DNA of 64,000 nucleotides, from assembly GCF_055900595.2 (NCBI RefSeq), contig NZ_CM148325.1. One strand, written 5' to 3'. The number at the start of each line of letters is the position of its first letter. The first letter of the stretch is position 1. Made by a program: the position numbers and the translations under genes. This document shows positions 18,596 to 55,058 of this stretch, in pieces. Below the pieces are notes generated by a model, which was given only the letters and a program-made list of their open reading frames with translations, was not told the DNA's origin and did no database searches.

Positions 18596-18789
18596 AATGC
18601 ATGCTCTCAGAGAAAATTATTAGCAGAAGTATAACCACGAAGACCTTTATTCAGAAGGGAAAGTCCGTTCCGAACCCACCAGTCCTGTGCAAAAATTAAT
18701 CATTCGATATGCAAATTGCATAACACACGAGCAAAACCCAGGAATTTTCCTAACATTGCCAGTGCGGCAATAAGATTACAGATATAAAA

Positions 18790-18820
18790 GCAAAACGCCA
18801 CGTAAACACGTGGCGTTTTT
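18790..18820. terminator. bidirectional rho-independent terminator between rho and the wec promoter region
   Basis: Perfect hairpin acgccacgt-aaac-acgtggcgt flanked by A-run and T-run (caaaacgccacgtaaacacgtggcgttttt). Confidence 0.7.
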
Positions 18821-18834
18821 GGCATAAGACAAAT

Positions 18835-20094
18835 TTATGAGCGCTTCATCATTTCGAAGAAATCGTCATTGGTCTTGGTCATCGCCAGTTTATTAATGAG
18901 GAACTCCATGGCATCGATTTCGCCCATCGGGTGAATGATTTTGCGCAGGATCCACATTTTCTGCAGCTCTTCCTGAGTAGTGAGCAGCTCTTCTTTACGG
19001 GTACCGGAACGGTTGTAGTCGATTGCCGGGAAGACGCGTTTTTCAGCGATCTTACGAGAGAGGTGCAGTTCCATGTTGCCTGTACCTTTAAACTCTTCGT
19101 AGATAACTTCGTCCATCTTGGAACCGGTATCGATAAGCGCGGTAGCGATGATGGTCAGGCTGCCGCCCTCTTCCACATTACGCGCCGCACCGAAGAAGCG
19201 TTTCGGGCGATGCAGGGCGTTGGCATCCACACCACCGGTCAGCACTTTACCTGACGCCGGAACAACGGTGTTGTAAGCACGCGCCAAACGAGTGATGGAG
19301 TCGAGCAGAATGATAACGTCTTTCTTGTGCTCAACCAGGCGTTTCGCCTTCTCGATCACCATTTCCGCAACCTGAACGTGGCGAGATGCGGGTTCGTCAA
19401 AGGTGGAAGCAACAACTTCACCTTTTACCAGACGCTGCATCTCGGTGACTTCTTCCGGACGTTCGTCAATCAGCAGAACCATCAGCACACAATCCGGGTG
19501 GTTGTAAGCAATGCTCTGAGCAATGTTCTGCAGCAGCATGGTTTTACCGGCTTTCGGCGGTGCCACAATCAGACCACGCTGACCACGACCGATAGGTGAT
19601 GCCAGATCCAGTACGCGAGCGGTTAAATCTTCAGTAGAACCGTTACCACGTTCCATGCGCAGACGAGAGTTTGCGTGCAGCGGGGTTAAGTTCTCAAAGA
19701 GGATTTTGTTGCGGGCGTTTTCAGGTTTGTCGAAGTTAACTTCGTTAACTTTCAGCAGCGCAAAATAGCGTTCACCTTCTTTCGGCGGGCGAATCTTACC
19801 AGAGATGGTATCACCAGTGCGGAGGTTGAAACGGCGGATTTGGCTAGGAGAAACGTAGATGTCATCAGGACCGGCGAGGTAGGAGCTGTCTGCGGAACGG
19901 AGGAAACCAAATCCATCCTGCAATATCTCCAGTACGCCATCACCAAAGATATCTTCGCCACTCTTTGCGTGCTGCTTCAGGATGGCAAAAATAATGTCCT
20001 GCTTACGCATACGAGCCAGGTTTTCCAGCCCCATATTTTCGCCGAGAGTGATCAGCTCAGAAACCGGCGTATTCTTTAATTCGGTAAGATTCAT
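18835..20094 (-). CDS. rho: transcription termination factor Rho
   Basis: Translation matches Rho ([33 protein letters not shown]..., Walker [11 protein letters not shown]); the track ORF (443 aa) is extended 24 codons upstream of the true start. Confidence 0.97.
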
Positions 20095-45761: not shown

Positions 45762-47189
45762 ATGAGCGATAAAAAGAAGCGCAGTATGGCGGGTTTGCCG
45801 TGGATCGCGGCGATGGCCTTCTTCATGCAGGCACTTGATGCCACTATTCTGAATACCGCCTTACCCGCAATCGCTCATAGCCTTAATCGTTCTCCTCTCG
45901 CGATGCAATCAGCCATCATCAGTTACACGCTGACGGTGGCGATGCTTATTCCGGTAAGCGGATGGCTAGCCGATCGCTTCGGTACGCGTCGCATATTTAC
46001 CCTTGCCGTGAGTCTGTTCACATTGGGTTCTCTGGCCTGCGCACTTTCTAACTCGCTACCACAGCTGGTTGTCTTCCGGGTTATTCAGGGGATAGGTGGC
46101 GCAATGATGATGCCTGTTGCTCGGCTGGCCTTACTGCGTGCTTATCCTCGTAATGAGCTTCTTCCTGTATTGAATTTTGTCGCCATGCCGGGTCTGGTGG
46201 GGCCAATTTTAGGCCCCGTACTTGGCGGCGTGCTGGTCACCTGGGCAACCTGGCACTGGATATTTTTAATCAATATCCCCATAGGTATTGCCGGCCTTCT
46301 TTACGCGCGCAAACATATGCCCAATTTCACCACCGCACGACGCAGATTCGATATCACTGGCTTTTTGCTGTTTGGCCTCAGCCTTGTTCTCTTCTCAAGC
46401 GGAATAGAGCTCTTCGGTGAAAAGATTGTCGCCAGTTGGATTGCCTTGACGGTAATTGTCACCAGCATCGGGTTACTGCTTCTCTATATTCTCCATGCAC
46501 GACGCACGCTAAACCCATTAATTTCATTAGATTTATTTAAAACCCGCACTTTCTCGATCGGTATAGTAGGCAATATTGCAACCCGTCTGGGGACCGGCTG
46601 TGTACCGTTCCTTATGCCATTGATGTTACAGGTAGGATTTGGTTATCAGGCGTTTATTGCCGGCTGTATGATGGCACCGACAGCGTTAGGTTCCATTATT
46701 GCAAAATCGATGGTTACCCAAGTCTTACGTCGTCTGGGCTATCGCCATACGTTAGTGGGGATCACGGTAATTATTGGGCTAATGATCGCTCAGTTCTCTT
46801 TGCAATCACCAGCAATGGCGATATGGATGCTGATCTTGCCGTTGTTTATATTAGGGATGGCTATGTCGACGCAATTTACCGCGATGAATACCATCACACT
46901 TGCCGATCTGACCGATGACAACGCCAGCAGCGGTAACAGTGTTCTGGCGGTCACGCAGCAACTGTCTATCAGTTTAGGCGTTGCTGTAAGTGCGGCCGTC
47001 CTTCGCGTTTATGAAGGGATGGAAGGCACAACGACTGTCGAACAATTCCACTATACGTTTATCACAATGGGCATTATTACTGTTGCTTCAGCAGCAATGT
47101 TCATGCTTCTGAAAACAACCGATGGTAATAATTTGATCAAAAGACAGCGTAAATCTAAGCCGAACCGCGTTCCATCAGAATCGGAGTAA
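45762..47189 (+). CDS. hsrA: MFS transporter (putative multidrug efflux, HsrA/YieO)
   Basis: 475-aa ORF with ~14 hydrophobic segments, DHA2-type MFS organisation. Confidence 0.9.
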
Positions 47190-48147
47190 GTTGTAATCGT
47201 TGTTGCTGAAGGGTCGGTTGGGTTATCCGATGGATGAGTACATCAATCGCCAGCTCCCCCAGTTCATCTTTCGGTTGATGGATAGTGGTTAATGGTGGCG
47301 TCATAAAGCTTGCCAGTTCGATATCGTCATAGCCAATCACCGCGATATCCTGCGGAACCTGTAACTCTGCCTGATATAGCGCCTGGTAAACGCCAACAGC
47401 CATAGCGTCATTTCCGGTAAAGACGGCCTGAGGACGCAGCGGATGTGATAACAGTTGGCGCATAGCGTCAAACCCGCCGTTAAATTCAAAATCACCAGTG
47501 ACTTCATAGCCATCAGGAATGTTGAGACCCGCACGTTTCATCGCCGCCCGATAACCTTCCAACCGCAGGCGCGCCGGAGTTTTATCCAGCGGGCCGGTAA
47601 TACAGGCGATACGGGTATGACCTTTATCGATCAGATATTGCGTTGCTAAGTCTCCGCCCAGCAACGAATTATCCTGAATGAGATCGCTGTCGCCATCGAA
47701 TGGTGCCCAGTCCATCATCACGGTAGGCACTGTCGGATAACGTTGCATGATTTCACGCGAAGGCTGATGCGTTTCGGTGCACAGTAACAGCAAGCCATCA
47801 ACGCGCTTTTGCATCAGCGTTTCCAGATTACGATTCATCCGCTGCTCATCGCCTTCGGTATTGCAAAGAACAAGACTATAGCCGCGCTCGAAGCAGCTGC
47901 GTTCAACGCCACGCACCAGTTCAGAATAAAAAGGATTGGTACTGGCAGTAATCAACATGCCAATGGTTCGAGTCTGATTGAGCTTGAGGCTACGCGCCAG
48001 AGCTGATGGCGCGTAATTGAGTTCTTTAATTGCCGCTTCAACTTTGGCAGTAATCGCTTCACTGACGAAGCGATCTTTATTGATGACGTGAGAAACTGTT
48101 GAGGTAGAAACGCCCGCCAGGCGGGCAACATCTTTCATTGTAGCCAA
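47155..48147 (-). CDS. rbsR: ribose operon repressor (LacI family)
   Basis: 330-aa ORF with LacI-type HTH ([33 protein letters not shown]) and periplasmic-binding-like core; last gene of rbsDACBKR. Confidence 0.95.
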
Positions 48148-48150
48148 GCG

Positions 48151-49080
48151 TCACCTCTGCCTGTCTAAAAATGCGTCGATCTCTTCACGCCATGGAACGG
48201 AAGGTTGTGCGCCTTTGCGCGTTACAGCAATCGCTGCGGCGGCATGAGCAAAACGAATCGCCTCCGGCAACGGTTTTTCTTCCAGCAACGCCGTGATTAA
48301 CGCGCCGTTAAAAGTATCTCCGGCAGCAATGGTATCGACAGCCTGCACCCGGAATCCAGGAACGCGCTGACCTTCACCATTCACGCTAGCCCATACACCA
48401 CGACTTCCTAAAGTAATCAGTACAGTACGGATACCTTTTTCATGCAGTACCTGCGCCGCTTTCGCTGCATCTTCATCATTTTCAACACGAATATCGGTGA
48501 GCTTTTCTGCTTCCGTTTCGTTTGGCGTAATAATGTCCACCAGCGCCAGCAGTTCGTCAGGAAGTTCGCGAGCCGGAGCCGGGTTAAGCGCAACGATAGT
48601 CTTATTTTGATGGGCGATTTTCGCCGCTGCCATCACACTTTCGAGTGGTGATTCCAGCTGCATTAATAATGCCGATGCGTTAGCAATACGCTCACGTTGC
48701 GCCTCCACCAGCGCAGGGGAAAGGGCTGCGTTAGCGCCGGCATGAATACCAATGACATTCTCACCTTCGCCATTAACAAAAATCAGCGCCACACCTGTTG
48801 ATTCGCCTTTGATCACGCTCACCGGAGAAATATCGATGTTATCAGTGGCGAGCTGCTGGCGAACGCTCTCACCAATGCTGTCATCACCCGTACAGGCAAT
48901 AAACGCGATATTCGCACCGCTACGCCCTGCAGCCACAGCCTGATTCGCGCCTTTGCCGCCAAATGCAACCTGATAGTGGTTACCGGTTACGGTTTCGCCT
49001 GGAGTAGGAAAAGATTGAAGATTAAGAATGTGGTCAGCATTAATGCTGCCAAGAACAACGAGGCTGCCTGCGTTTTGCAT
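48151..49080 (-). CDS. rbsK: ribokinase
   Basis: PfkB-family ORF; start placed at MQNAGSLVVLGSINADHILN (309 aa); the track ORF is 9 codons longer. Confidence 0.9.
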   Translation of the reverse strand: MQNAGSLVVLGSINADHILNLQSFPTPGETVTGNHYQVAFGGKGANQAVAAGRSGANIAFIACTGDDSIGESVRQQLATDNIDISPVSVIKGESTGVALIFVNGEGENVIGIHAGANAALSPALVEAQRERIANASALLMQLESPLESVMAAAKIAHQNKTIVALNPAPARELPDELLALVDIITPNETEAEKLTDIRVENDEDAAKAAQVLHEKGIRTVLITLGSRGVWASVNGEGQRVPGFRVQAVDTIAAGDTFNGALITALLEEKPLPEAIRFAHAAAAIAVTRKGAQPSVPWREEIDAFLDRQR

Positions 49081-49205
49081 ATTCGGGATGTCCATAAAAT
49101 GCGCCACCGTGTTAGGGTGGCGCGTGCCCTGCTTTTCTTTATTTTACACGTTCATCTGTCGATGACGTATTTATGTCACCATCAGGTCATACAACCTGAT
49201 TAAAA

Positions 49206-50096
49206 CTACTGCTTAACAACCAGTTTCAGATCAACCGGATACTTAGCCTGAACTTTCTCGCCTTTCAGCACTTTATCGGCGGTTTCGACGCCTTTCGCGC
49301 CAATCTGATCGGGTAGCTGAGCGATAGTCGCTGCTAGTTTGCCATCATTCACCGCTTTTTCGCCATCCGGTGTACCGTCAAATCCGACGACCATCACATC
49401 CGATTTACCAGCAGTTTGCAGTGCGCGCAGCGCGCCCAGCGCCATTTCATCATTCTGCGCGAACACAGCCTGAACATCCGGATGAGCGGTCAACAGGTTC
49501 TGCATTACGTTCAAACCTTTGGTGCGGTCAAAGTCCGCTGGCTGGCTGGCAAGAACATTAAACTTGTGAGCAGCAACGGCCTGCTGGAAACCTTCGCCAC
49601 GCTCACGGGCTGCGGAGGTACCGGCAATGCCTTGCAGCTCGATAACTTTGGCTCCTTCGCCCGCTTTCTTCGCGATGTAATCACCGGCGATTTTGCCGCC
49701 CAGTACGTTATCAGAAGCAATATGGCTCACTACTTCACCTTTCGTTGCCTGGCGGTCAAGAGTGATAACCGGGATATTCGCCTGGTTAGCCATCTTCACA
49801 GCATTACCCACTGCGTCGGAGTCGGTCGGGTTAATTAGCAGAATTTTGGTGCCGCGAACGGTTAAGTCCTGCACGTTCGCCAGCTCTTTCGCCGGGTTGT
49901 TCTGGGAGTCCAGCACCACCAGGTTATAGCCGAGTTTATCCGCCTCTTTCTGCGCGCCATCTTTCAGCGATACAAAGAACGGGTTGTTAAGCGTGGAGAC
50001 CACCAGCGCGATGGTGTCTTTTGCCATCGCATTCGCACTGACGGTGGCGCTTAGCGCAACAGCGGAAACCAGGGTAGCCAGTTTTTTCATGTTCAT
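49206..50096 (-). CDS. rbsB: periplasmic ribose-binding protein
   Basis: Start placed at [25 protein letters not shown] (signal peptide), 296 aa. Confidence 0.95.
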
Positions 50097-50120
50097 ATTC
50101 AAGATGTCCTGTAGTCGTTA

Positions 50121-51086
50121 TTACTGTTTTTTGTTGTCTACCAGCACCGCCAGCAAAATCACCACCGCTTTGACGATCATCTGGTAATAGGAGGAAACAC
50201 CTAACAAATTCAATCCATTATTAAGGAAGCCAAGAATTAATGCGCCGATCAACGTCCCAACAATGCGACCTTTTCCGCCCGCCAGACTCGTACCGCCCAG
50301 AACCACCGCAGCAATAGCATCCAGCTCATAGCCAGTTCCCGCAGTGGGTTGTGCGGAGGAGAGACGCGCCACTTCAATGATCCCGGCCAGCGATGCCAGC
50401 AGACCACAAAGAGAATAGACGATGATTTTGATTTTATTGACGTTGATACCAGAAAGGCGCGTAGCCGCTTCGTTGCCGCCCAGCGCGTAGATGTAACGCC
50501 CCAAACGTGTGTGATGCAGCATGTACCAGGCCGCGAGGAACACAATCCCCATGATCCAGACTGGCGTCGGTACGCCCAGCGGACGACCAATACCAAACCA
50601 GCCGAACAGATCGGCGTTCTCAGTAAAGCCGGTATTCACTGGGCTACCGTTGGTATAAACCATGGTCACGCCGCGCAGTAAAAGCATCATAACCAGCGTA
50701 GCGATAAACGCCTGGACGCGACCTTTCGCAACAATCACCCCGGTTACCGCACCAATAGCGGCACCTAACGCGAGAGCGGCAGCGACAGCCACCAGCGCAT
50801 TGACTTCAATGCCGACGATAGATGCAGCCACTGCGCCAGTCAGCGCCAATAGAGAACCTACCGACAAGTCGATGCCCGACGTCAGGATCACCAGCGTCAT
50901 CCCGACCGCCATAATGGCGTTCACCGAGGTTTGCTGGAGAATATTGAATAAGTTATTGATGGTGAAAAAGTTCGGGCTTAATGTCGAGACAATCGCGATC
51001 AGCACCAGCAGAGCGATAAGCGATTTCTGCTCCATCAGCCATGCTTTCGTGAAATAACGGCGACCAGAGACAGTCTGGGTTGTCAT
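50121..51086 (-). CDS. rbsC: ribose ABC transporter permease
   Basis: 321-aa polytopic membrane ORF of the AraH/RbsC permease family. Confidence 0.95.
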   Translation of the reverse strand: MTTQTVSGRRYFTKAWLMEQKSLIALLVLIAIVSTLSPNFFTINNLFNILQQTSVNAIMAVGMTLVILTSGIDLSVGSLLALTGAVAASIVGIEVNALVAVAAALALGAAIGAVTGVIVAKGRVQAFIATLVMMLLLRGVTMVYTNGSPVNTGFTENADLFGWFGIGRPLGVPTPVWIMGIVFLAAWYMLHHTRLGRYIYALGGNEAATRLSGINVNKIKIIVYSLCGLLASLAGIIEVARLSSAQPTAGTGYELDAIAAVVLGGTSLAGGKGRIVGTLIGALILGFLNNGLNLLGVSSYYQMIVKAVVILLAVLVDNKKQ

Positions 51087-51090
51087 TTTT

Positions 51091-52596
51091 TTACTCCTGA
51101 TTCACGCGATTAAGCTTGCCCACAGCGGCAGCCATTAACACTTCCTGGGTGGCCCGCTCACGAGTAAATTCCCCGCTGAGATGCCCTTCATGCATGACGA
51201 TGATGCGATCGCTCATGCCTAATACTTCTGGCATCTCCGATGACACCAGAATGATGCTCAAGCCATCGGCTTTGAACTGGTTAATCAGTTGATAGATCTC
51301 TTTTTTCGCACCAACATCTACGCCACGGGTAGGTTCATCAAGAATCAACACTTTGGGGCGTGTCATCAGTCCACGGGCAATCGCCACTTTTTGCTGATTG
51401 CCACCGGAGAGCAAACCAATTGCCTGTTCCATCGACGGCGTTTTCACATTAAACAGACGAATAAAATCACTCACTGCCTGCTGTTCATCGGCATGCTTCA
51501 AACTGCCGCCAGTACGGCTAAAGTAACGCAGCGCAGTCAGCGACATATTCTCTTTGACTGACATACCCAGCACTAAACCGTCACGTTTGCGGTCTTCGGA
51601 GATATACACAATGCCGTTTGCCAGGCCATCCTGCGGTGAACGGGTAACGACTTCATGCCCATCCAGAGTGACGTAACCGCTGGTACGCGGCAGTGCGCCG
51701 TAGAGCACTTTCATCAGTTCGGTACGCCCCGCGCCCATCAAACCAGAGACGCCAAGAATTTCACCTTTGCGTAAGGTAAATGAAACATCATTAACGCCAG
51801 GTCCGCAGAGATTATCGACTTTCAGGCGGATATCGCCCGGCGCTTTGTCCAGGTGTGGATATTGATCTTCCAGCTTGCGGCCCACCATCATCTCAATCAG
51901 CGAATCTTCGGTCAGTGATGCCACTTCGCGCTCAGCAATAAATTGCCCGTCACGAAAAACAGTAACGTCATCGCAAATTTCGAAGATTTCTTTCATGCGG
52001 TGGGAGATATAGACAATACCGCGGCCTTGCGATTTCAGCTCGCGGATGACGCGGAACAGGGATTCGGTTTCGGTATCGGTCAGCGCATCGGTCGGTTCAT
52101 CCATAATGATGACTTTCGACTCAAAGCTCAGCACTTTGGCGATTTCAACCATTTGCTGGTCACCGATGGAAAGATCGCCCACCAGCTTGTCACTTTTAAA
52201 ACGCAGGTTAAGTTTAGCCAGCAATTTATCCGCTTCGGCATACATGGTTTTCCAGTCAATTTTGCCAAAGCGATTAACAAACTCACGACCGAGGAAAATG
52301 TTTTCGGCAATGGTTAACTGCGGGATCAGGTTCAGTTCCTGATGGATGATTCCAATGCCGGCTTCCTGGGAGGATTTCGGCCCGGTAAACGTTGTTTCTT
52401 TCCCCAGCCATAAAAGCGTACCGGCATCACGCGTATAGATACCAGTAAGCACTTTCATCATGGTGGATTTACCCGCGCCGTTTTCACCCACCAGCGCCAT
52501 TACACGCCCCGGATAGACATTTAACGCGGCGCCCGAGAGGGCTTTTACGCCCGGAAAGGCTTTATCAATGCCTTTAAGCTGTAGTAATGCTTCCAT
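51091..52596 (-). CDS. rbsA: ribose ABC transporter ATP-binding protein (two fused ABC domains)
   Basis: 501-aa ORF with Walker [10 protein letters not shown] and duplicated ABC signature/Walker B regions. Confidence 0.95.
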
Positions 52597-52603
52597 GACG
52601 GCC

Positions 52604-53023
52604 TCAGAACGTCACGCCAGCACAGAGAATGATATTCGCATACGGAGAACATTCTCCGCTGCGAATTACCGCCTGACTTTCTGCGGTTTGTTGTTTGAAT
52701 TGTTCATGCGTGGTGTAACGAATTTCAATGGTATTTCCCTGGTGTTTTTGCAGCTGCTCAAGGTGAGTGAGCAACGTTTCGTGGAGTTGCGGATTATGTT
52801 GTTTGATCTCTTCCGCGATAATGGCAGCCTCGACCTGCATTTCATTTGTGACGACGCCCAGCACCTGCATAAAAGAAGGTACACCCTGGGTTAATGCCAT
52901 ATCGATACGCGTTGTACTTTTGGGGATGGGTAAACCAGCATCACACACCACCAACGTATCGGTATGTCCCAGACGGGAGATCACCGAAGAAATATCAGAA
53001 TTAAGAACGGTGCCTTTTTTCAT
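52604..53023 (-). CDS. rbsD: D-ribose pyranase
   Basis: Start placed at [22 protein letters not shown] (139 aa). Confidence 0.9.
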
Positions 53024-53035
53024 TTTTTTCTCCAT

Positions 53036-53053
53036 CAGCGAAACGTTTCGCTG
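53036..53053. promoter_or_regulatory. candidate RbsR operator (perfect 18-bp palindrome)
   Basis: cagcgaaacgtttcgctg is a perfect inverted repeat of the LacI/PurR-family half-site type, 13 bp upstream of the rbsD start codon. Confidence 0.5.
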
Positions 53054-53145
53054 ACCCGCAGTTTAATCCTGACTGAGTTGGGAAAACCATCGTGACGTTA
53101 CGGAAATGTGATCAACATCGAAACGTTTTACATGGTGATTAACCA

Positions 53146-53182
53146 TGAAAACAAAAACGCCCCCTTATGGAGAAAGGAGGCG
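53146..53182 (-). terminator. candidate terminator downstream of kup
   Basis: Minus-strand hairpin (acgcc...ggcgt) followed by ttttgtttt. Confidence 0.4.
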
Positions 53183-53189
53183 TCTGGCG

Positions 53190-55058
53190 TTAAATTTCGA
53201 CCTGAGTACCCAGTTCGATAACCCTGTTTGGCGGGATTTCAAATTGATCCGGTGCGCGCAGCGCATTACGTTGCAACAGCAAATACAGCTTGCCGCGCAA
53301 ACGCAAATACCACGGACGTTTGCCGAGGATCAGTGATTCATGCGACATAAAGAAGGAGGTTTCCATCATCCGGCAACTTAACCCTTCCAGACCACAGCGG
53401 TGGAAAACTTCTTCCACGTTTGGCGTTTCCCGCCATCCATAACTTGCCACCACGCGCCAGAAAGTGGACGACAGTTGTTCAATCTGTACCCGACGGACGT
53501 TATGGACATATGGCGCGTCTTCAGTGCGCAGAGTTAACAGAATCACCCGCTCATGCAACACCTTGTTATGTTTCAGGTTATGCATCAGTGCAAAGGGAAT
53601 GACGTTGATTGCACGCGACATATACACCGCGGTCCCTGGCACGCGAACGGGCGGTGATTTCTCCAGCGAAGCAATCATCGCTTCCAGAGAGTTGCCATGT
53701 TCATGCATCCGCCGCAGCAAGCGGAAACGCTCGCTCTTCCAGGTAGTCATCACGATAAACATTACCGTACCGAGACTCAGTGGCAACCAGCCGCCGGAGA
53801 GCAGTTTATCGAGGTTAGCGGTGAACAATGGAATATCAACACAAAGGAAAGCAATCAGGATCAGCGCAACAAAATACTTATTCCAGTGCCAGTTCTGACG
53901 TGCCACAGTAGTTGAGAGAATAGACGTCAGTACCATGGTTCCGGTCACCGCAATCCCGTACGCCGCCGCCAGGTTGCTGGAGTGCTCAAAGCTGACAATC
54001 ACAATCACGACCGCGACATAGAGCATCCAGTTCACAAACGGAATATAGATTTGCCCTGACTCCATTTCGGAGGTGTGAATAATGCGCATCGGCGACAAAT
54101 ATCCCAGACGTACCGCCTGACGCGTCAATGAGAAGACGCCAGAAATAACCGCCTGCGAGGCAATTACCGTCGCCAGTGCGGCGATGATCAGCAGCGGGAT
54201 CAGCGCCCAGTCCGGTGCCAACAGGAAGAACGGGTTCTTAATTGCTTCCGGGTTCTTTAACAACAGAGCGCCCTGGCCAAAGTAATTAAGAGTTAATGAA
54301 GGCAATACGACGGTGAACCACACCAGGCGAATCGGGAACTTACCAAAGTGCCCCATATCAGCGTACAGCGCCTCGACACCGGTAATCGACAGCACCACTG
54401 CCCCTAACGCAATAAACGAAACCGTTTTATATTCAAGGAAGAAATGCACCGCCCACATCGGATTCAACGCATGCAGTACTTCCGGGTTAGCAATAATGCT
54501 ACGCACCCCCAGTCCCGCCAGAATCAAAAACCAGGTCAGCATGATAGGCGCAAACAGCTTACCGACCATAGCAGTGCCATGTTTTTGAATCATAAATAGT
54601 AAAGTCAGAACGATGATTGAGAGGGGAACTATCCAGGTATCCAGCTGCGGAGCGACGATTTCCAGACCTTCAATGGCAGACATCACCGAAATAGCGGGTG
54701 TTATGACGACTTCACCATAGAAAAAGCTGCCGCCGATTAGCCCCATAATAACCAGCATTGATGTCGTTCGCGCCGACGTATTACGCCCGGCAAGCGACAT
54801 CAACGTCAGAATGCCCCCTTCCCCGGCGTTATCTGCCCGCATCACGAAGGTGAGATATTTAATGGAAACCACAAAGATTAGCAGCCAGAAGATCAGCGAT
54901 AAAAAGCCAAACACGGCATCGCGTTCAACGCCAAAACCAAACTGGCCGGACAAACATTCACGAAGTGTATATAACGGGCTGGTACCAATATCGCCGTAGA
55001 CAACTCCAATCGCCGCGAGGGTAATCGCGGGCAACGATTGCTTATTATCAGTGCTCAT
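53190..55058 (-). CDS. kup: low-affinity K+ uptake transporter (KUP family)
   Basis: 622-aa [35 protein letters not shown]... with 12 TM N-terminal domain and cytoplasmic C-terminal domain. Confidence 0.97.

What the first reader, a model, noticed from the sequence alone, without database searches (positions are those of the whole stretch)
49081..49205. Strong hairpin inside the rbs operon between rbsB and rbsK - candidate 3'UTR-derived sRNA end or intra-operon attenuator
Between the rbsB stop (49206) and the rbsK start (49080) the minus strand carries a perfect 8-bp GC stem (gcgccacc-ctaacac-ggtggcgc; forward 49101..49123) followed by AUUUUAU, only about 20 nt upstream of the rbsK start. This could create a processed or terminated rbsB 3' fragment; I recall an rbsB-derived sRNA (RbsZ) reported for E. 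coli. It could also explain differential rbsB versus rbsK expression. The hairpin overlaps the alternative in-frame ATG start of the rbsK track ORF, so the rbsK start and SD are ambiguous.
Basis: partly seen in the sequence, partly recalled or inferred. Interest (0 to 1): 0.3.

Follow-up and report, generated by a model that had tools for sequence, protein, structure and literature searches.

The report
Terminator hairpin of known sRNA RbsZ
The hairpin between the ribose genes rbsB and rbsK is real, but it is the already described 3' terminator stem-loop of the E. coli small RNA RbsZ, a decoy for the stress small RNA RybB, so the finding is correct and not new.

Summary
On the minus strand, GCGCCACC-CUAACAC-GGUGGCGC (49123..49101) is followed by AUUUUAU. 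It lies 20 nt upstream of the rbsK ATG (49080), in an E. coli rbsDACBKR operon.

The element is already known. K-12 RefSeq annotates the ncRNA rbsZ (b4804, 3937045..3937278). This maps without indels to window 49329..49096, so the RNA ends on the last U after this hairpin. Published Term-seq places a strong 3' end on that nucleotide in three growth conditions, and lists no Rho-dependent region in this spacer. A ~230-nt RNA at this position was seen in Shigella in 2011 (cssrG). It was named RbsZ in 2020 and described as a sponge of RybB.

Two nucleotides 5' of the stem lies AAAGAAAAGCAGGGC (49140..49126). This is the best complement to the RybB 5' end in the whole rbs operon.

Comparison of 80 Enterobacterales rbsB-rbsK spacers added four points:
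- The module (RybB site, hairpin, GGA, ATG) is present in 64 of them.
- The stem covaries.
- Variants of the RybB site keep their pairing.
- The U-tract is poor in most genera.

The rbsK start at 49080 is not ambiguous. Novelty: already known. Interest: low.

The parts
49096..49329 (-). RbsZ small RNA (234 nt): the last 121 nt of rbsB plus stop codon, then 110 nt of the rbsB-rbsK spacer
   Evidence: K-12 annotation rbsZ b4804 3937045..3937278. The same coordinates appear in PMC8175672 Table 2A. Mapped by a gapless alignment with 2 substitutions in 281 nt.
49101..49123 (-). Terminator stem-loop GCGCCACC-CUAACAC-GGUGGCGC (8 bp, 7-nt loop, -15.2 kcal/mol)
   Evidence: Stem unpaired probability 0.001-0.004 in every context folded. 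Covariation: 94.9% of cells paired, 7 of 9 pairs with compensatory changes, 0 of 500 shuffles as good.
49094..49100 (-). Short U-tract AUUUUAU. The published RNA 3' end is at 49096, the fourth U.
   Evidence: Term-seq 3' end at K-12 3937278 in three conditions. No Rho termination region is listed in this spacer in that paper's Supplementary file 2.
49126..49140 (-). RybB-pairing (sponge) site AAAGAAAAGCAGGGC, complementary to RybB nt 1-16 with A4 bulged
   Evidence: Duplex -22.2 kcal/mol, the best in the whole rbs operon; the next best is -17.1. The 12-mer AAAGAAAAGCAG is unique in the window, with 0 expected. Mean unpaired probability is 0.88 in the spacer-to-3'-end fragment (49205..49096) and 0.66 in full-length RbsZ. 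Only 0.6% of control windows reach -16 kcal/mol.
49181..49200 (-). Hairpin 1, directly after the rbsB stop (AAUCAGGU-UGUA-UGACCUGAU... register 49200-49181)
   Evidence: Conserved as UCAGGY...RCCUGA, followed by a GGGACA-like motif, in Enterobacteriaceae with long spacers. 4 of 7 pairs show compensatory changes.
49146..49170 (-). Hairpin 2 (AUACGUCAUC-GACA-GAUGAACGUGU), limited to the Escherichia/Citrobacter/Salmonella lineage
   Evidence: Folding. Present only in the longer spacers. A divergent E. coli carries a 9-nt insertion in its loop. The published RbsZ Northern probe AZ1421 covers this region.
49091..49093 (-). GGA, the conserved Shine-Dalgarno-like core for rbsK. It lies 3' of the RbsZ 3' end.
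   Evidence: Nearly invariant GGA columns in the 32-species alignment. Spacing to the ATG varies from about 8 to 11 nt, so the stretch is not coding.
48151..49080 (-). rbsK (ribokinase) CDS; true start ATG at 49080
   Evidence: K-12 rbsK 3937294..3938223. PDB ribokinase chains begin with MQNAG. tblastn alignments of 80 species begin at this Met.
49206..50096 (-). rbsB (periplasmic ribose-binding protein) CDS, host gene of the RbsZ 5' part
49336..49344 (-). Possible extended -10 element (TGgCAAACT) for the internal RbsZ promoter, 7 nt upstream of the annotated 5' end at 49329. Inference only.
   Evidence: Sequence. GAT GGC AAA CTG is kept in most Enterobacteriaceae, but preferred codons could explain that. 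There is no excess synonymous-site conservation. bioRxiv 10.1101/2023.08.28.555190 states that long RbsZ has its own promoter.

Best explanation
The hairpin is the 3' terminal stem-loop, a Rho-independent terminator, of the known small RNA RbsZ. RbsZ is embedded in the E. coli ribose operon rbsDACBKR. Two kinds of transcript end here: those coming from the operon promoter, and those from a reported internal promoter in rbsB with a 5' end at 49329. They form the 8-bp GC stem and end at the fourth U of AUUUUAU (49096). This releases RbsZ (234 nt), and after RNase E processing a shorter form, RbsZ-S. Two nucleotides 5' of the stem lies a single-stranded 15-nt site that pairs with the 5' seed of the envelope-stress sRNA RybB. 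According to the literature, RbsZ acts as a sponge: on Hfq the duplex is degraded by RNase III, and ProQ protects it. The 3' end lies upstream of the rbsK ribosome-binding site, so terminated RNAs cannot encode ribokinase. Only polymerases that read through the short U-tract make rbsK-rbsR mRNA. The same element therefore also works as a leaky intra-operon stop. Shown: the sequence, the structure, its conservation and covariation, the complementarity to RybB, and the identity of position with the annotated and Term-seq-mapped 3' end. Taken from the literature: expression, the sponge activity, and the roles of Hfq, ProQ, RNase III and RNase E. Inferred: that the 3' end arises by intrinsic termination rather than trimming, and that read-through sets the rbsK/rbsR level.
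For: Identity: 5398 of 5426 E. coli genomes carry this locus, annotated rbsB|rbsK. K-12 rbsZ b4804 maps to 49329..49096. 3' end: Term-seq peak at K-12 3937278, equal to window 49096, in LB OD 0.4, LB OD 2.0 and M63 glucose; no Rho region in this spacer. Terminator features: 8-bp stem with 7 GC pairs, 5 T in the next 8 nt, first in the list of the scan, -15.2 kcal/mol. RybB site: -22.2 kcal/mol, the best in the operon, a unique 12-mer, mostly unpaired. The RybB 5' region is highly conserved in the Rfam RF00110 consensus. Literature: RbsZ as a RybB sponge (PMC7815308; TRIC-seq preprint); RNase III, Hfq and ProQ (PMC9977716); RbsZ-S processing; RNase E processing (PMC11347164); ~230-nt Northern band in Shigella with a predicted terminator as the 3' boundary (PMC3071730). 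Comparative: a covariance model finds the full module in 64 of 80 Enterobacterales rbsB-rbsK spacers. Stem covariation beats all 500 shuffles and all slid controls. The site variants CAG-GGC, UGUGGC, CGUGGC and CAUGGC all keep about 15 bp with RybB, each with a different 1-nt bulge. In divergent Escherichia, substitutions fall in the 5' spacer and the loop, never in the site, stem, tail or SD.
Against: The U-tract is short (A then four U), and the mapped end is only 5 nt past the stem. This also fits 3' exonuclease trimming back to a stable hairpin. In most other genera the tail is poor (CUCUCAGA, GCUUUCCG, ACUCAAAC): only 6 of 53 site-bearing spacers have at least 5 T in 8 nt. The hairpin is nevertheless conserved, even in Serratia, Dickeya and Pseudescherichia, which lack the RybB site. 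Its conserved role may therefore not be termination as such. I could not read the primary RbsZ paper (Melamed et al. 2020), so the mechanistic details are second-hand. No expression data exist for the strain in the window. Termination efficiency and read-through were not measured.
Confidence: 0.88

Rival explanations
1. The hairpin is mainly a decay barrier or protein-binding 3' structure, not a terminator. RNA polymerase reads through. RNase E cuts downstream, and 3' exonucleases trim back to the stem. This stabilises the upstream rbsDACB mRNA and the RbsZ fragment and gives more RbsB than RbsK, as REP hairpins do in malE-malF (from established knowledge).
For: The U-tract is weak or absent in most genera while the stem is conserved: 47 of 53 site-bearing spacers have 4 or fewer T in 8 nt. 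The mapped 3' end is only 5 nt after the stem. RNase E is reported to process rbsZ. ProQ is reported to protect RbsZ. The hairpin persists in species without the RybB site.
Against: In E. coli the tail AUUUUAU passes a terminator scan. The 3' end is very strong in all three Term-seq conditions. The Shigella study and RepRanger both classify it as a Rho-independent terminator. The reported RNase E processing concerns the 5' end of RbsZ-S, as far as the texts I could read say.
Confidence: 0.2
2. The hairpin is primarily a translational control element for rbsK. It sits at a fixed distance from the rbsK ribosome-binding site, or it masks an upstream alternative start.
For: The distance from stem to ATG is confined to about 18-24 nt in the 53 site-bearing spacers (the printed values are 1 too high). 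The ORF-finder's GTG start (49107) lies in the 3' arm and an in-frame ATG lies at 49095.
Against: The GGA core (49093..49091) and the AUG lie outside the stem. The upstream ATG is not conserved, and GGA-to-ATG spacing varies by non-multiples of 3. Ribokinase chains start at MQNAG. Terminated RNAs lack the RBS altogether. The fixed distance is explained equally well by a compact spacer holding only a tail and an SD.
Confidence: 0.05
3. It is a chance GC-rich palindrome, or a copy of a repeated extragenic palindrome (REP), with no specific function.
For: Short GC hairpins are common. The covariance model also hit an unrelated hairpin near the rho gene at 18778..18839, at 25.6 bits.
Against: Fold z-score of -4.86. 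One copy per window and a median of one place per genome. Conserved in position, with compensatory changes, in 64 of 80 species. An experimentally mapped 3' end.
Confidence: 0.01

Closest known systems
RbsZ / RbsZ-S of E. coli K-12 (b4804; Melamed et al. 2020), equal to cssrG of Shigella flexneri 301 (Peng et al. 2011, PMC3071730)
   Same: It is the same locus. The flanking genes, strand and coordinates after mapping are identical, as are the hairpin, tail and RybB site. There are 2 substitutions in 281 nt, neither in those elements.
   Different: Nothing of substance. The window strain has A instead of T at 49143, between hairpin 2 and the RybB site, and a synonymous change at 49278.
chbBC intergenic ChiX trap of the chitobiose operon (Overgaard et al. 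2009; cited in PMC7815308)
   Same: It is an intercistronic spacer of a sugar-utilisation operon that carries a decoy site for one Hfq-dependent sRNA, so operon transcription titrates the sRNA (text).
   Different: As far as I recall, the chb trap acts within the polycistronic mRNA and is not released as a terminated sRNA with its own hairpin and internal promoter. The target is ChiX, not RybB.
Other RybB sponges: 3'ETS-leuZ and FtsO
   Same: They pair with the RybB 5' seed and lower RybB level or activity.
   Different: 3'ETS-leuZ is a tRNA precursor spacer and FtsO is internal to the ftsI ORF. Neither uses an intra-operon terminator upstream of a downstream cistron.
3'UTR-derived sponge and regulator sRNAs that share the host gene's terminator (SroC, RaiZ, CpxQ, SdhX)
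   Same: The 5' part overlaps the host CDS, the 3' end is the intrinsic terminator hairpin, both promoter-derived and RNase E-processed isoforms exist, and Hfq and/or ProQ bind.
   Different: Here the terminator is not at the end of the operon. Two more genes (rbsK, rbsR) depend on read-through.
Intercistronic stabiliser hairpins (the REP in malE-malF; from established knowledge)
   Same: A stable hairpin after the gene for a periplasmic binding protein in an ABC-transporter operon could explain higher expression of the upstream gene.
   Different: This is not a REP: it is single copy and has a different sequence. It carries a U-tract and a mapped, abundant 3' end.

Membership tests
RbsZ sRNA (E. 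coli K-12 b4804) | Encoded on the rbs strand, from inside the rbsB 3' end to just upstream of rbsK (K-12 3937045..3937278) | tested here: met
   Gapless alignment to K-12 with 279 of 281 positions identical; maps to window 49329..49096.
RbsZ sRNA (E. coli K-12 b4804) | 3' end at the hairpin plus U run | tested here: met
   Hairpin and tail are identical to K-12. The published Term-seq 3' end at 3937278 equals 49096. The mapping was done in K-12, not in this strain.
RbsZ sRNA (E. coli K-12 b4804) | Base-pairing site for the RybB 5' seed | tested here: met
   AAAGAAAAGCAGGGC at 49140..49126; -22.2 kcal/mol; best in the operon; unique 12-mer.
RbsZ sRNA (E. coli K-12 b4804) | Expressed, bound by Hfq and ProQ, and lowers RybB | not testable with these tools
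   Literature only.
Rho-independent (intrinsic) terminator | GC-rich stem-loop immediately followed by a U-rich tract | tested here: met
   8 bp with 7 GC pairs; AUUUUAUG has 5 T of 8; first in the list of the scan. The tract is short, with only four consecutive U.
Rho-independent (intrinsic) terminator | RNA 3' end within the U-tract, and independence from Rho | tested here: met
   From published data, not measured here. The Term-seq end is on the fourth U. No Rho termination region lies in the rbsB-rbsK spacer; the nearest are in rbsA and rbsR.
Rho-independent (intrinsic) terminator | Termination by purified RNA polymerase in vitro, with a measured efficiency | not testable with these tools
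   No such data were found in the papers I could read.
Rho-independent (intrinsic) terminator | U-tract conserved in orthologous hairpins | tested here: not met
   Only 6 of 53 site-bearing orthologous spacers have at least 5 T of 8, and 32 of 53 have 3 or fewer. This applies to other genera, not to E. coli.
REP / repeated extragenic palindrome | Many dispersed copies per genome sharing a consensus | tested here: not met
   One match in the window even at 2 mismatches. A median of one place per E. coli genome for the spacer. RepRanger lists rbsZ as RIT, not REP.
Any Rfam 15 family | Covariance-model match | tested here: not met
   No match with E <= 1 in the spacer. The only hit in 47000..54000 is a chance serC-leader match at 53374..53435, E = 0.96.
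Regulated attenuator (alternative terminator/antiterminator leader) | A competing structure or ligand/sRNA-dependent switch of the terminator stem | tested here: inconclusive
   Stem unpaired probability is 0.001-0.004 in all contexts. RybB pairing ends 2 nt before the stem, at RybB's own 5' end, so it cannot invade the stem. No conserved alternative pairing was found. Function was not tested.

The most novel reading that the evidence does not exclude
The element could be a RybB-responsive intra-operon gate, rather than only the passive terminator of a sponge RNA. RybB (with Hfq or ProQ) binds 2 nt from the stem base and stacks on it. This could change termination efficiency or the fate of read-through transcripts, so that envelope stress would tune ribokinase and RbsR synthesis. 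The order-wide conservation of the site, the stem and a fixed 18-24 nt distance to the rbsK ATG, together with the loss of the U-tract in most genera, would then reflect selection on this coupling and not on termination as such.
Probability: 0.06. Interest if true: 0.5.

Novelty: already known. Interest (0 to 1): 0.1.

Why it matters
For the scan, this finding can be closed as a correct rediscovery of RbsZ. RbsZ links ribose-operon transcription to the envelope-stress sRNA RybB.

The comparative results may be useful, though I cannot exclude that the primary paper already shows part of them:
- The RybB site plus hairpin module extends across Enterobacteriaceae and Erwiniaceae, and into parts of Pectobacteriaceae and Yersiniaceae.
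- The site evolves while keeping its pairing to RybB.
- The U-tract is not conserved. This raises the question of whether the 3' end is made by termination outside Escherichia.

RbsZ has no Rfam family, so automatic annotation misses it in thousands of E. coli genomes.

Tried and rejected
1. Rfam 15 search of 47000..54000 at E <= 1 found no family for the spacer.

2. The primary RbsZ paper (PMC6980735, PMID 31761494) is not held. The supplements of PMC11347164, which hold the RNase E sites, are not held either. The exact 5' end of RbsZ-S is therefore unknown to me.

3. RNA folding of the read-through transcript suggested long-range pairing between the RybB site and rbsK codons 7-11 (GCCUCGUUGUUCUU). 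The site's unpaired probability falls from 0.88 to 0.26. Across 54 species this region ranks in the top 3 of 89 rbsK windows only in the two E. coli sequences. I rejected it as a conserved feature.

4. Synonymous-site constraint in the rbsB part of RbsZ and at the putative internal promoter: codon identity is 0.69-0.80 against a gene mean of 0.72. This is no signal. The TGgCAAACT conservation could simply reflect codon preference.

5. Alternative rbsK start at 49095 (ATG) or 49107 (GTG): rejected.

6. REP or multicopy element: rejected.

7. Plus-strand ORF 48976..49203 (75 aa), antisense to the spacer: not credible. The spacer length varies from 57 to 262 nt, with many indels that are not multiples of 3.

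8. The whole-molecule RbsZ-RybB duplex energy was not discriminating against shuffles (-56.7 against -45.8 +/- 5.1). The seed-only analysis was used instead.

9. A sigma-70 promoter for rbsK inside the spacer: none was found by the scan. The TAAAAT at 49146..49141 has no usable -35 and is not conserved.

Full report
**Observation.**
The minus strand between 49208 and 49078 reads as follows:
- rbsB stop TAG at 49208..49206
- a first hairpin at 49200..49181
- a second hairpin at 49170..49146
- an A-rich single-stranded stretch
- GCGCCACC (49123..49116), CUAACAC, GGUGGCGC (49108..49101)
- AUUUUAU (49100..49094)
- GGA (49093..49091)
- the rbsK ATG (49080)

The stem has 8 perfect pairs, 7 of them G-C, and the hairpin energy is -15.2 kcal/mol. 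A consensus scan of 47000..54000 puts it first in its list of terminator-like sites. The whole spacer folds far better than shuffled sequence (z = -4.86, 0 of 200 shuffles as good). The stem pattern occurs once in the window.

**Identity of the locus.**
The 501 nt around the spacer match 5398 of 5426 complete E. coli genomes, annotated rbsB and rbsK. The K-12 MG1655 record shows the operon order kup, rbsD, rbsA, rbsC, rbsB, rbsK, rbsR. It also carries an ncRNA feature, rbsZ (b4804, 3937045..3937278, "small regulatory RNA RbsZ"), which overlaps the rbsB 3' end and stops 16 nt before rbsK.

A gapless alignment of the window to K-12 shows 2 substitutions in 281 nt: 49278, which is synonymous, and 49143. 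RbsZ therefore corresponds to window 49329..49096 on the minus strand. Its last nucleotide is the fourth U after the hairpin.

**Experimental evidence already published.**
- Adams et al. 2021 (PMC7815308, Supplementary file 1) list a Term-seq 3' end at 3937278(+). The flanking sequence is TAATATAAAGAAAAGCAGGGCACGCGCCACCCTAACACGGTGGCGCATTTT|ATGGACATCC. It appears in all three growth conditions, with scores 84,576, 107,544 and 28,585.
- Their list of Rho termination regions has entries in rbsA (3934445) and rbsR (3938387) but none in this spacer.
- Peng et al. 2011 detected a ~230-nt RNA, cssrG, between rbsB and rbsK of Shigella flexneri by Northern blot. They placed its 3' boundary at a predicted Rho-independent terminator (PMC3071730).
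- Bar et al. 2021 list RbsZ at 3,937,045 to 3,937,278, credit Melamed et al. 2020, and report that they probed it by Northern blot (PMC8175672).
- Secondary sources state that RbsZ is a sponge of RybB, and that down-regulation needs Hfq and RNase III while ProQ protects the duplex.
- They also state that a short form, RbsZ-S, is processed from operon transcripts while the long form has its own promoter, and that RNase E processes rbsZ.
- I could not obtain the primary paper.

**The RybB site.**
RybB was taken from the K-12 record. Its first 16 nt, GCCACUGCUUUUCUUU, pair with AAAGAAAAGCAGGGC at 49140..49126: 15 bp with RybB A4 bulged, at -22.2 kcal/mol.
- This is the best seed complement anywhere in the rbs operon; the next best is -17.1.
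- Its 12-nt core is unique in the window, with 0 expected by chance.
- Only 0.6% of control 22-nt windows from the fetched rbs loci reach -16 kcal/mol.
- The site is predicted mostly unpaired: mean probability 0.88 in the fragment from the spacer to the 3' end, and 0.66 in full-length RbsZ.
- It ends 2 nt before the stem. Because pairing uses RybB's very 5' end, RybB cannot invade the terminator.
- The Rfam RybB consensus shows the 5' region as highly conserved.

**Comparative analysis.**
A scan of one genome per species returned 80 Enterobacterales loci with close RbsB relatives. In all of them rbsK follows rbsB. True spacer lengths range from 57 to 262 nt; the lengths printed are 1 too high.

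A 32-species alignment shows an almost invariant block: AAAGAAAAGCAGGGCA(C)-GCGCCACC-loop-GGUGGCGC-tail-GGAC-N8-11-ATG. RNAalifold predicts the 9-pair stem. A covariance model built from this alignment finds the complete module in the window and in 64 of 80 loci at E <= 3.7e-6.

On the 66-sequence model alignment, 94.9% of cells are paired and 7 of 9 pairs show compensatory changes. No shuffle out of 500, and no slid register, does as well.

The module has this distribution:
- Present throughout Enterobacteriaceae and in Erwinia and Pantoea.
- Degenerate in Pectobacterium and Brenneria.
- Present in one Yersinia species.
- Absent in Serratia, Dickeya and Pseudescherichia, which keep the hairpin but lack the RybB site.

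Three further points emerged.
- **Site variants keep their pairing.** CAG-GGC, UGUGGC, CGUGGC and CAUGGC each retain about 15 bp with the RybB 5' end and move the single bulge to A4, U6, U6 and C5 respectively. Energies are -19.5 to -22.3 kcal/mol.
- **The U-tract is not conserved.** Among 53 site-bearing spacers, only 6 have at least 5 T in the 8 nt after the stem, and 32 have 3 or fewer. Examples are CUCUCAGA in Enterobacter, GCUUUCCG in Klebsiella and ACUCAAAC in Cedecea.
- **The distance from stem to ATG is confined** to about 18-24 nt (the printed values are 1 too high).

Within Escherichia, a divergent strain and E. albertii carry many changes in the 5' half of the spacer. They have none in the site, stem, tail or SD; only loop bases differ. 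Hairpin 1 is also conserved, with compensatory changes in 4 of 7 pairs, in the Enterobacteriaceae with long spacers. Hairpin 2 is lineage-specific.

**The rbsK start.**
The ORF finder starts the frame at GTG 49107, inside the 3' arm, and an in-frame ATG lies at 49095. Neither is the start, for three reasons:
- Ribokinase chains in the PDB begin at MQNAG, which is the 49080 start. This reflects the annotated gene as expressed and is not independent proof.
- tblastn alignments in 80 species begin at that Met.
- In other species the position of the E. coli AUG-GAC reads CUGGAC, CCGGAC, ACGGAC, AGGGAC or UUGGAA, and the GGA-to-ATG spacing varies from about 8 to 11 nt.

The conserved letters are GGA, a weak Shine-Dalgarno core. 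It lies 3' of the RbsZ 3' end, so terminated RNA carries no rbsK ribosome-binding site.

**Mechanism.**
The best-supported reading is that this is the intrinsic terminator and 3' structure of RbsZ, placed inside an operon. Transcripts that stop here yield the sponge RNA. Transcripts that read through the short U-tract carry rbsK and rbsR.

- Shown: sequence, structure, conservation and positional identity with the annotated and mapped 3' end.
- From the literature: sponge activity and the protein partners.
- Inferred: that the end arises by termination rather than exonucleolytic trimming, and that read-through sets rbsK/rbsR expression.

The main rival is a decay-barrier or ProQ-binding hairpin with 3' ends made by trimming. 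The weak or absent U-tracts outside Escherichia, and the end lying only 5 nt past the stem, keep it alive. I give it about 0.2 for E. coli and more for other genera. A translational role for rbsK and a chance palindrome are both unlikely.

**Things that led nowhere.**
- There is no Rfam family for this RNA.
- There is no synonymous-site constraint in the rbsB-internal part.
- An attractive long-range pairing between the RybB site and rbsK codons 7-11 is specific to E. coli.
- No promoter for rbsK was found in the spacer.

**Verdict.**
It was described as cssrG in 2011 and as RbsZ in 2020, and its 3' end was mapped in 2021. Interest is low. The residual value lies in the order-wide comparative picture and in the open question of how the 3' end forms where the U-tract is missing.

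Noticed in passing
window 18778..18839 (+), hairpin 18796..18818: The RbsZ-module covariance model gave a weak full-length hit here (25.6 bits, E = 4.7e-4). The sequence is AACGCCACGTAAACACGTGGCGTT, flanked by an A-run and a T-run. It sits just past the stop (18835) of a minus-strand ORF whose C-terminus reads ...[10 protein letters not shown], which I recall as Rho. It looks like an ordinary two-way terminator and only a chance resemblance to the RbsZ module.
   Followed up: partly
window 49181..49200 (-), and loci L003-L047: The first hairpin after the rbsB stop (UCAGGY...RCCUGA), followed by a GGGACA-like motif, is conserved with compensatory changes in Enterobacteriaceae that have 100-150 nt spacers. 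Its role is unknown; it could be the RbsZ-S processing site or a protein-binding site.
   Followed up: partly
window about 52730 (-), K-12 3933644: Published Term-seq lists a strong 3' end inside rbsD (scores 51,340 and 34,428). It maps about where the only promoter-like hit of my scan lies (52728..52699). The rbsD mRNA is reported elsewhere as a sponge for DsrA and ArcZ.
   Followed up: no
E. coli RefSeq genomes (H1-H40, L083): Automatically annotated (PGAP) E. coli genomes show only rbsB and rbsK under the match. rbsZ is annotated in K-12 only. This fits the absence of an RbsZ family in Rfam 15.
   Followed up: partly
L036:3389..3452 (Phytobacter massiliensis), also L048-L057, L068-L079: In species with 57-75 nt spacers the RybB site starts at or within a few nt of the rbsB stop codon. 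In L036 the TAA stop is part of TAAAGAAAAGCAGGGC. The minimal ancestral module is therefore stop codon, site, hairpin, SD.
   Followed up: partly
L065:3389..3653 (Pectobacterium betavasculorum); L072, L074, L075, L077 (Yersinia): L065 has a ~190-nt insertion upstream of the module. It contains CCCCAGGAGCTTACACAAGTAAGTGACTGGGG, which I recall as ERIC-like. Several Yersinia spacers instead hold a different long palindrome (…AGTTGCAGG…CCTGCAACTTCAAG) and have lost the RybB site and the GCGCC hairpin.
   Followed up: no
window 49051..49064 and 49126..49139 (-): In E. coli only, rbsK codons 7-11 (GCCUCGUUGUUCUU) can pair with the RybB site in read-through RNA. This lowers the site's predicted accessibility from 0.88 to 0.26. 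The pairing is not conserved in other genera.
   Followed up: yes
window 53155..53185 (-): A 12-bp hairpin followed by a T-run (AGACGCCTCCTTTCTCCATAAGGGGGCGTTTTTGTTTT) lies just after the kup-like ORF stop (53190), upstream of rbsD. It is probably the kup terminator.
   Followed up: no
window 49101..49131 (+): On the plus strand the palindrome is followed, 8 nt later, by CUUUUCUUUAUUUU, the complement of the RybB site, which is therefore RybB-seed-like. The scan also reports a weaker plus-strand hairpin at 49113..49131 with this tail. No plus-strand gene ends nearby. Published data show Rho stopping antisense transcription in rbsR before it could reach this point.
   Followed up: no
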